Assembly: GCF_046105845.1 (NCBI RefSeq)
Contig: NZ_CP151004.1
From: Escherichia coli
GTDB lineage: Bacteria > Pseudomonadota > Gammaproteobacteria > Enterobacterales > Enterobacteriaceae
Direction: 5' to 3' (one strand)
DNA: 64,000 bases
In this document: positions 3,030 to 3,095 of the stretch, piece by piece
Layout: each line of letters opens with the position of its first letter
Position numbering within the stretch: position 1 is the first letter of the stretch
Made by a program: the position numbers and the translations under genes
Notes under the pieces: model-generated
Database searches by the model: none
What the model was told of the DNA's origin: nothing
The model's input: the letters and a program-made list of their open reading frames with translations, nothing else

Positions 3030-3095
3030 GGACAAATATTTAACAAACTCAGCCCTGACATTGAGCAGCTTTTTCGCTGCGTAGTGTCAGGGCTG
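3030..3095 (-). terminator. Putative malZ rho-independent terminator
   Basis: Perfect 11-bp inverted repeat cagccctgaca (3050-3060) / tgtcagggctg (3085-3095), 34 nt past malZ stop, followed on minus strand by U-rich tract; loop is long (24 nt). Confidence 0.45.

What the first reader, a model, noticed from the sequence alone, without database searches (positions are those of the whole stretch)
3050..3095. Perfect 11-bp inverted repeat at the malZ-proximal edge of the insertion
cagccctgaca ... tgtcagggctg with a 24-nt loop sits 34 nt beyond the malZ stop and immediately upstream of the putative promoter of the inserted gene. It may be the malZ terminator insulating the new gene, or a remnant marking the insertion junction.
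Basis: seen in the sequence. Interest (0 to 1): 0.3.

Follow-up and report, generated by a model that had tools for sequence, protein, structure and literature searches.

The report
Stem-loop carried by malZ–acpH gene islet
The inverted repeat is a real and very stable stem-loop, but it is not the native malZ terminator: it came in with a 1.6-kb single-gene islet that about one fifth of E. coli strains carry between malZ and acpH, and it most likely just caps the malZ transcript, which is ordinary.

Summary
The arms are perfect 11-bp repeats at 3050-3060 and 3085-3095. The 24 nt between them hold a nested 5-bp stem, so the real structure has 16 bp. It is the most stable 50-nt fold in the whole 64-kb window on either strand.

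In 4295 of 5426 complete E. coli genomes, the malZ and acpH stop codons lie 4 bp apart with no hairpin. The hairpin occurs in 1126 genomes, the same number that carry the AT-rich islet, once per genome. It matches no true plasmid or phage record, and its arm pair was found in no Escherichia representative genome. So it belongs to the inserted DNA and is not the native malZ terminator.

Nothing marks it as a recombination scar. There is no second copy, no terminal repeat, no target duplication and no recombinase gene.

It lies on the malZ coding strand, 33 nt after the stop, and is followed by AGUUUGUU. That U-tail is weak compared with canonical terminators in the same window. The best reading is an islet-borne RNA stem-loop that ends or stabilises the malZ transcript and partly shields the orphan gene. 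This is inferred, not shown. No covariation is available to test it. Interest is low.

The parts
3050..3095 (-). 46-nt stem-loop. Outer 11-bp stem 3050-3060/3085-3095, 4x4 internal loop, inner 5-bp stem 3065-3069/3076-3080, apical loop 3070-3075 (GAAAAA on the - strand).
   Evidence: Across the 13 intergenic alleles compared, the stems vary at 2 of 32 positions, while loop length varies from 6 to 9 nt and 3 of 8 internal-loop positions vary. In the 11-row pair count, 99.4% of cells pair.
3034..3049 (-). U-rich but interrupted tail directly 3' of the stem on the - strand: AGUUUGUUAAAUAUUU.
   Evidence: Tail score is 1.2, against 3.8-4.1 for canonical terminators in the same window.
3096..3128 (-). 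33-nt spacer between the malZ stop codon and the stem-loop. It is part of the insert. Positions 3114-3120 (ATAAAAC) resemble the empty-site junction.
3005..3029 (-). Small second hairpin CGUUCGAUAUGAGCG (3029 to 3015) followed by AUUUUUGG. It is terminator-like by the consensus scan.
   Evidence: It is not well conserved: the polymorphisms at two stem positions each break a pair. The scan finds 3 such sites where 2.2 are expected by chance.
3129..4946 (-). malZ (maltodextrin glucosidase), the upstream gene on the same strand.
1558..2943 (-). AT-rich E. coli-only orphan gene of the islet. The window copy has a TGG to TGA nonsense change at 1807-1809, leaving a 378-aa ORF at 1807-2943. Intact alleles are 461-489 aa.
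1538..3128 (.). The roughly 1.59-kb insert between the acpH stop and the malZ stop. GC is 31-40% against 51-57% in the flanks. The left breakpoint probably lies inside the last two acpH codons (1532-1537).
956..1537 (+). acpH (ACP phosphodiesterase), convergent with malZ. It ends CTC TGA here and TTA TAA in empty-site genomes.

Best explanation
The inverted repeat is an RNA stem-loop that belongs to a horizontally acquired single-gene islet inserted between the convergent genes malZ and acpH. It lies on the malZ coding strand, 33 nt past the stop codon. In islet-bearing strains it most likely forms the 3' end of the malZ transcript. It could do this as a weak, non-canonical intrinsic terminator, as a barrier to 3'-to-5' exonucleases, or both, and so partly shield the AT-rich orphan gene downstream from MalT-driven read-through.

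Shown: the structure, its exceptional predicted stability, its strict linkage to the insert, its absence from empty-site genomes, and that it is single-copy.

Inferred: that it is transcribed as part of the malZ mRNA, and that it stops or stabilises that RNA.
For: Position and strand: it is downstream of the malZ stop, upstream of the orphan gene's start codon (ATG, 2943-2941) and Shine-Dalgarno sequence, and both genes are on the - strand. It has the strongest local fold in 64 kb, with z about -9. On the - strand it is followed by AGUUUGUU (5 U in 8) and then a second small hairpin with U5. On the + strand it is followed by GUGACUAACG, with no U-run. Across 13 alleles the stems are nearly invariant: one break, and one C-to-U change that keeps a G.U pair on the - strand. 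Meanwhile the apical loop changes length (6-9 nt) and the internal loops vary. Empty-site genomes have no room for any terminator because the two stop codons are 4 bp apart. The same arm sequence serves as the stem of classical hairpin-plus-T-run terminators in unrelated Prevotellaceae and Oscillospiraceae MAGs (metagenome-assembled genomes).
Against: The U-tract is weak. The tail score is 1.2 and the discriminant about -32, where canonical terminators in the same window score +36 (6504-6531, - strand) and +16 (22523-22563, + strand) (I wrote the formula from memory of d'Aubenton-Carafa 1990). The consensus terminator scan does not call it. There are no compensatory changes, so evolution gives no proof of an RNA structure. 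Stem conservation is not significantly above that of the flanks: 2/32 against about 21/154 non-stem positions. The + strand folds better (-35.3 against -30.0) because two C.A mismatches become G.U pairs. I found no transcript-end data for this locus.
Confidence: 0.5

Rival explanations
1. It is a functionless passenger. The hairpin would be a piece of donor intergenic DNA, for example the decayed terminator of the gene that lay upstream of the orphan gene in the unknown donor. It was carried in with the islet and is retained only because the islet is young and has diverged little.
For: The whole 185-nt intergenic stretch is 95-99% identical among carriers, and the stems are not significantly more conserved than the flanks. 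There is no covariation. The U-tail is degenerate. One natural allele (19KM1831) carries an uncompensated break in the outer stem.
Against: It is the single most stable local fold in 64 kb. Indels and substitutions concentrate in the loops and spare the stems. It sits exactly where a co-oriented upstream gene needs a 3' end.
Confidence: 0.25
2. It is a regulatory structure for the orphan gene or for an antisense RNA. It could be a 5'-leader stem-loop, an RNase III-type processing site or a protein-binding site for the orphan gene. Alternatively it could act on the + strand in an RNA antisense to the malZ 3' end and the orphan gene's 5' region.
For: On the + strand the helix is nearly continuous, 19-20 bp with G.U pairs, at -35.3 kcal/mol. 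The A-to-U change in the MFDS allele closes the last mismatch as U.G on that strand, and 19KM1831 turns it into U-A. Promoter-like sites on the + strand lie inside the AT-rich gene at 2448-2477 and 2561-2588.
Against: No promoter-like site lies between malZ and the hairpin or between the hairpin and the ATG on the - strand. Other alleles contradict a + strand preference: L020 keeps G.U only on the - strand, and L015 breaks a + strand G.U. There is no Rfam match. There is no U-run on the + strand.
Confidence: 0.12
3. It is a recombination or insertion scar: a cis-acting hairpin site (attC-like, an IS200/IS605-like subterminal hairpin, or a Xer-type site) through which the islet was inserted.
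For: It lies 19-33 nt from the malZ-side junction of the insert. The insert sits with unusual precision between two stop codons.
Against: The acpH end has no counterpart, and there is no terminal inverted repeat and no target duplication. The insert carries no integrase or transposase gene. E. coli genomes hold one copy at most. No true plasmid or phage carries it. Its arm pair is in no Escherichia representative genome. No GTTRRRY core flanks the arms, by direct reading.
Confidence: 0.05
4. It is the native malZ terminator, already present before the insertion.
For: Only its position downstream of malZ.
Against: It is absent from all empty-site genomes. 4295 genomes have the two stop codons 4 bp apart. 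The hairpin region matches only the 1126 insert-bearing genomes.
Confidence: 0.01

Closest known systems
Rho-independent (intrinsic) transcription terminators
   Same: A GC-rich stem-loop a few tens of nt after a stop codon, on the coding strand, followed by U-rich sequence. It shows one-sided polarity, with U-rich sequence on the - strand only.
   Different: The stem is unusually long and interrupted: 11 + 5 bp with a 4x4 internal loop, 46 nt in all. The U-tract is interrupted and starts with A and G, giving a tail score of 1.2 against 3.8-4.1 for canonical terminators in the same window.
REP/BIME intercistronic palindromes (e.g. the malE-malF REP that stabilises upstream mRNA; established knowledge, recalled from memory)
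   Same: A stable stem-loop between co-oriented genes that needs no U-tract to act as a 3'-to-5' exonuclease barrier. This is the mechanism I consider jointly most likely.
   Different: REPs are a dispersed family with hundreds of copies per genome. This sequence is single-copy and islet-specific, and it has no similarity to anything else in E. coli.
Hairpin recombination sites (integron attC, IS200/IS605 subterminal hairpins)
   Same: An imperfect palindrome with unpaired bases, next to the edge of a small inserted gene.
   Different: There is no integrase or TnpA, no partner site, no conserved core, only a single copy, and it lies on the 5' side of the gene.
Unrelated terminators with the same stem in Prevotellaceae and Oscillospiraceae MAGs (L005, L006, L007)
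   Same: Identical 11-nt arms CAGCCCTGACA / TGTCAGGGCTG.
   Different: Their loops and flanks are different and a canonical T6-T8 run follows. There is no homology beyond the arms, so this is a convergent or chance match.

Membership tests
Intrinsic terminator | Stable GC-rich stem-loop | tested here: met
   -30.0 kcal/mol on the - strand. It is the top-ranked fold of the window.
Intrinsic terminator | Uninterrupted U-tract (about 4-8 U) immediately 3' of the stem | tested here: not met
   The tail is AGUUUGUUAAAU, with tail score 1.2 and discriminant about -32. Canonical sites in the same window score +36 and +16. The consensus scan does not call it.
Intrinsic terminator | Located downstream of a gene on its coding strand | tested here: met
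   It lies 33 nt after the malZ TAA on the - strand.
Intrinsic terminator | RNA 3' ends map to the tail in vivo or in vitro | not testable with these tools
   I found no Term-seq data for this locus. The supplements of PMC7547250 are not held, and PMC5597208 does not mention the locus.
REP/BIME or other dispersed E. coli repeats | Many copies per genome | tested here: not met
   There is exactly one place per genome in 1126 genomes and none in the other 4300.
Native malZ terminator (core-genome feature) | Present at the malZ 3' end irrespective of the insert | tested here: not met
Mobile-element end or attC-type recombination site | Partner site, terminal repeat or target duplication at the other end | tested here: not met
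   The repeat search of 1500-3160 finds none.
Mobile-element end or attC-type recombination site | Cognate recombinase or transposase nearby, or copies on mobile elements | tested here: not met
   The only ORF of the insert has no Pfam, NCBIfam, PADLOC or PHROG family. There is no true plasmid or phage copy.
Described structured RNA family (Rfam) | Match to a covariance model | tested here: not met
   No hit covers 3050-3095 at E up to 10.

The most novel reading that the evidence does not exclude
The hairpin is the cis-acting site of an undescribed hairpin-dependent (ssDNA or cruciform) insertion route. That route would have placed a single orphan gene precisely between the stop codons of two convergent core genes without leaving repeats or a recombinase. 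An alternative version is that it acts as a + strand structured RNA controlling the orphan gene.
Probability: 0.04. Interest if true: 0.6.

Novelty: new member of a known kind. Interest (0 to 1): 0.13.

Why it matters
Its importance is limited. It corrects the annotation logic: this hairpin is not a core-genome malZ terminator but accessory DNA that travels with an E. coli-only orphan gene in about 21% of complete genomes.

If it does end the malZ transcript, islet-bearing strains (including O157:H7) and K-12-type strains would have different malZ 3' ends and different convergent-transcription geometry with acpH. That is a small, testable case of how an acquired islet can bring its own insulation.

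The orphan gene itself is the more intriguing object. It has no homologue outside E. coli among 1.84 billion representative proteins and is inactivated by a nonsense codon in this window. It is a separate finding.

Tried and rejected
- **Native terminator:** rejected by the empty-site comparison.
- **Dispersed repeat (REP, ERIC, MITE):** rejected, because it is single-copy.
- **Origin on a plasmid or phage:** there are no matches. The two 'plasmid' hits are mislabelled 4.9-Mb chromosomes.
- **Same hairpin in other species:** the exact-arm scan of 100,044 species representatives gave only three unrelated Bacteroidota or Firmicutes terminators, and nothing in Escherichia or relatives. This used the only genome-contig scan.
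- **Rfam:** no match.
- **Function of the orphan protein:**
  - Pfam, NCBIfam, PADLOC, PHROGs and PDB sequence searches were all empty or sub-threshold.
  - The exhaustive representative search found only E. coli variants and fragments, plus one spurious PKD-domain hit.
  - The AlphaFold model had pLDDT 39.6, so I did not run a fold search.
- **Covariation:** none is possible at this divergence.
- **Strand inference from G.U against C.A asymmetry:** the alleles point both ways, so I dropped it.
- **Literature:** my guessed O157 locus tags returned no microbiology papers. The Term-seq papers hold no usable per-locus data.
- **P0110 'alternative N-terminus' allele:** this is an artefact of a contig end.

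Full report
**Observation.**

CAGCCCTGACA (3050-3060) pairs perfectly with TGTCAGGGCTG (3085-3095), with 24 nt between. malZ is the 605-codon ORF at 3129-4946 on the - strand, so 33 nt separate its stop codon from the repeat.

The 24-nt 'loop' contains a nested 5-bp stem (GCAGC/GCUGC) flanked by a 4x4 internal loop, with a 6-nt apical loop. The repeat finder reports 20-nt arms that are 85% complementary.

As RNA, the 46 nt fold at -30.0 kcal/mol on the - strand and -35.3 on the + strand, with z about -9 against their own shuffles. An 11-bp perfect inverted repeat alone would not be remarkable: 0.6 are expected per shuffled window, and 35% of shuffles contain one. The full structure, however, ranks first on both strands among 25,582 sliding 50-nt folds of the window, whose mean is -10.1 with sd 4.3.

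**Context.**

The gene order in the window is:
- acpH (+, ending at 1537);
- an AT-rich gene on the - strand (1558-2943);
- a 185-nt spacer (2944-3128) that contains the hairpin;
- malZ (-).

GC falls to 31-40% across the middle gene, against 51-57% in the flanks. RefSeq genomes annotate the middle gene as a 461-489 aa hypothetical protein. In the window it carries a TGG to TGA nonsense change at 1807-1809.

In K-12, the acpH stop and the malZ stop are 4 bp apart, and there is no hairpin. Four further empty-site alleles from divergent backgrounds show the same arrangement: TTA TAA, then AACG, GACG or GAGG, then TTA.

A 304-nt probe across the K-12 junction is contiguous in 4295 of 5426 complete E. 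coli genomes. The 1.9-kb probe across the insert is covered in 1126 genomes. The 99 nt around the hairpin match the same number, 1126 genomes, once each, always on the chromosome, and nothing in the remaining genomes even at blastn sensitivity.

The hairpin is therefore neither the native malZ terminator nor a dispersed repeat. It is part of the inserted DNA.

**Is it a junction scar?**

The evidence says no.
- There is no terminal inverted repeat, no target duplication and no second copy at the acpH end.
- The only ORF of the insert has no family assignment of any kind.
- No true plasmid or phage carries the gene or the spacer.
- An exact-arm scan of one genome for each of 100,044 species found only three unrelated hairpin-plus-T-run terminators in Prevotellaceae and Oscillospiraceae MAGs (metagenome-assembled genomes), and nothing in Escherichia or its relatives.

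The junction itself is untidy. All filled alleles sampled end acpH with CTC TGA, where all empty alleles sampled have TTA TAA; both encode Leu-stop. The motif ATAAAAC is shared by the empty junction and the right end of the insert. The breakpoints therefore probably lie inside the last two acpH codons and 9-15 nt before the malZ stop. Either way, the hairpin is internal to the insert, 19-33 nt from its malZ-side edge.

**What it most likely does.**

On the - strand the stem-loop lies in the malZ 3' untranslated region. It is followed by AGUUUGUUAAAUAUUU and, 20 nt on, by a small hairpin with a U5 run. On the + strand no U-run follows.

Across 13 distinct alleles, the 32 stem positions show two changes. 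One is an uncompensated break in strain 19KM1831. The other is a C-to-U change that keeps a G.U pair on the - strand. By contrast, the apical loop varies from 6 to 9 nt through slippage of its A-run, and three of the eight internal-loop positions vary. In the 11-row pair count, 99.4% of cells pair, but there is no covariation.

This fits an RNA stem-loop that defines or protects the malZ 3' end and reduces read-through into the orphan gene. It is not a canonical intrinsic terminator. Using a d'Aubenton-Carafa-type score (formula written from memory), it scores about -32. Two textbook-looking terminators in the same window score +36 and +16.

I therefore give 0.5 to 'weak terminator and/or exonuclease barrier for malZ, acquired with the islet'. 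The mechanism resembles that of intercistronic REP stem-loops, without membership of that family.

**Rivals.**

- Functionless passenger from the donor (0.25). The islet has diverged little and its flanks are almost as conserved as the stems.
- Leader, processing or antisense structure (0.12). The + strand helix is more continuous thanks to G.U pairs, and one allele series (A.G, then U.G, then U-A) looks compensatory on that strand. Other alleles point the opposite way, and no promoter-like site supports it.
- Recombination site (0.05).
- Native terminator (refuted).

**Novelty and interest.**

This is an ordinary kind of feature: a terminator-like stem-loop between co-oriented genes, in an accessory context that does not appear to have been described. 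I found no literature on the locus.

The more unusual object nearby is the orphan gene. It has only 19 hits among 1.84 billion representative proteins, 18 of them variants or fragments of itself and one a spurious PKD-domain match. All named top hits are E. coli, or one E. coli-like 'Enterobacteriaceae bacterium'. Its structure model was unusable, with pLDDT 39.6.

Noticed in passing
window 1558-2943 (-), nonsense codon at 1807-1809: The islet's only gene is an E. coli-restricted orphan. Intact alleles are 461-489 aa with a variable Lys/Glu-rich central indel and a Ser/Thr/Asn-rich N-terminus. The only family hint is a sub-threshold EspG Pfam hit (E 0.03-0.05). In this window it is cut short by TGG to TGA, leaving 378 aa.
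   Followed up: partly
window 2798-2819: A 22-bp perfect palindrome with no spacer (TTTTCATTTCC|GGAAATGAAAA) lies inside the orphan gene's 5' part. The A16 allele has a Ser-to-Cys difference in the stretch it encodes (LFISGNENL to LFICGNENL), which should break the palindrome; I did not check the DNA. A perfect 11+11 palindrome is expected about 0.015 times per 64 kb (my estimate).
   Followed up: no
window 1532-1537 versus L001 1491-1496: The last two acpH codons differ between all sampled filled alleles (CTC TGA) and all sampled empty alleles (TTA TAA), yet both encode Leu-stop. The insertion breakpoint therefore seems to lie inside acpH, with the reading frame restored by the incoming DNA.
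   Followed up: partly
window 44789-44839: An inverted repeat with 18-bp arms (TATACTATAGGGGGGTAT ... ATACCCCCCTATAGTATA) lies just upstream of an ORF that begins [15 protein letters not shown] (frmR-like). It is probably the known FrmR operator or promoter palindrome; this is from memory and I did not test it.
   Followed up: no
window 6504-6531 (-) and 22523-22563 (+): Two canonical hairpin-plus-T-run intrinsic terminators (scores +36 and +16), which I used as internal calibration.
   Followed up: partly
window 3129-3400 (malZ 3' end): The last 272 nt of malZ are unusually diverse among E. coli genomes, at 91-98.5% identity to the window. Empty-site strains fall on both sides of the filled-site alleles, which suggests old haplotypes or recombination around this junction.
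   Followed up: no
window 1613-1631 (+): A terminator-like hairpin on the acpH strand, 76 nt after the acpH stop and inside the 3' end of the orphan gene (antisense). It could be where acpH transcripts end in islet-bearing strains.
   Followed up: no
hits H108 and H109, malZ-phoR region of other genomes: Some E. coli genomes carry an IS200C insertion within the malZ-proY-brnQ-phoR stretch. It is unrelated to the hairpin.
   Followed up: no
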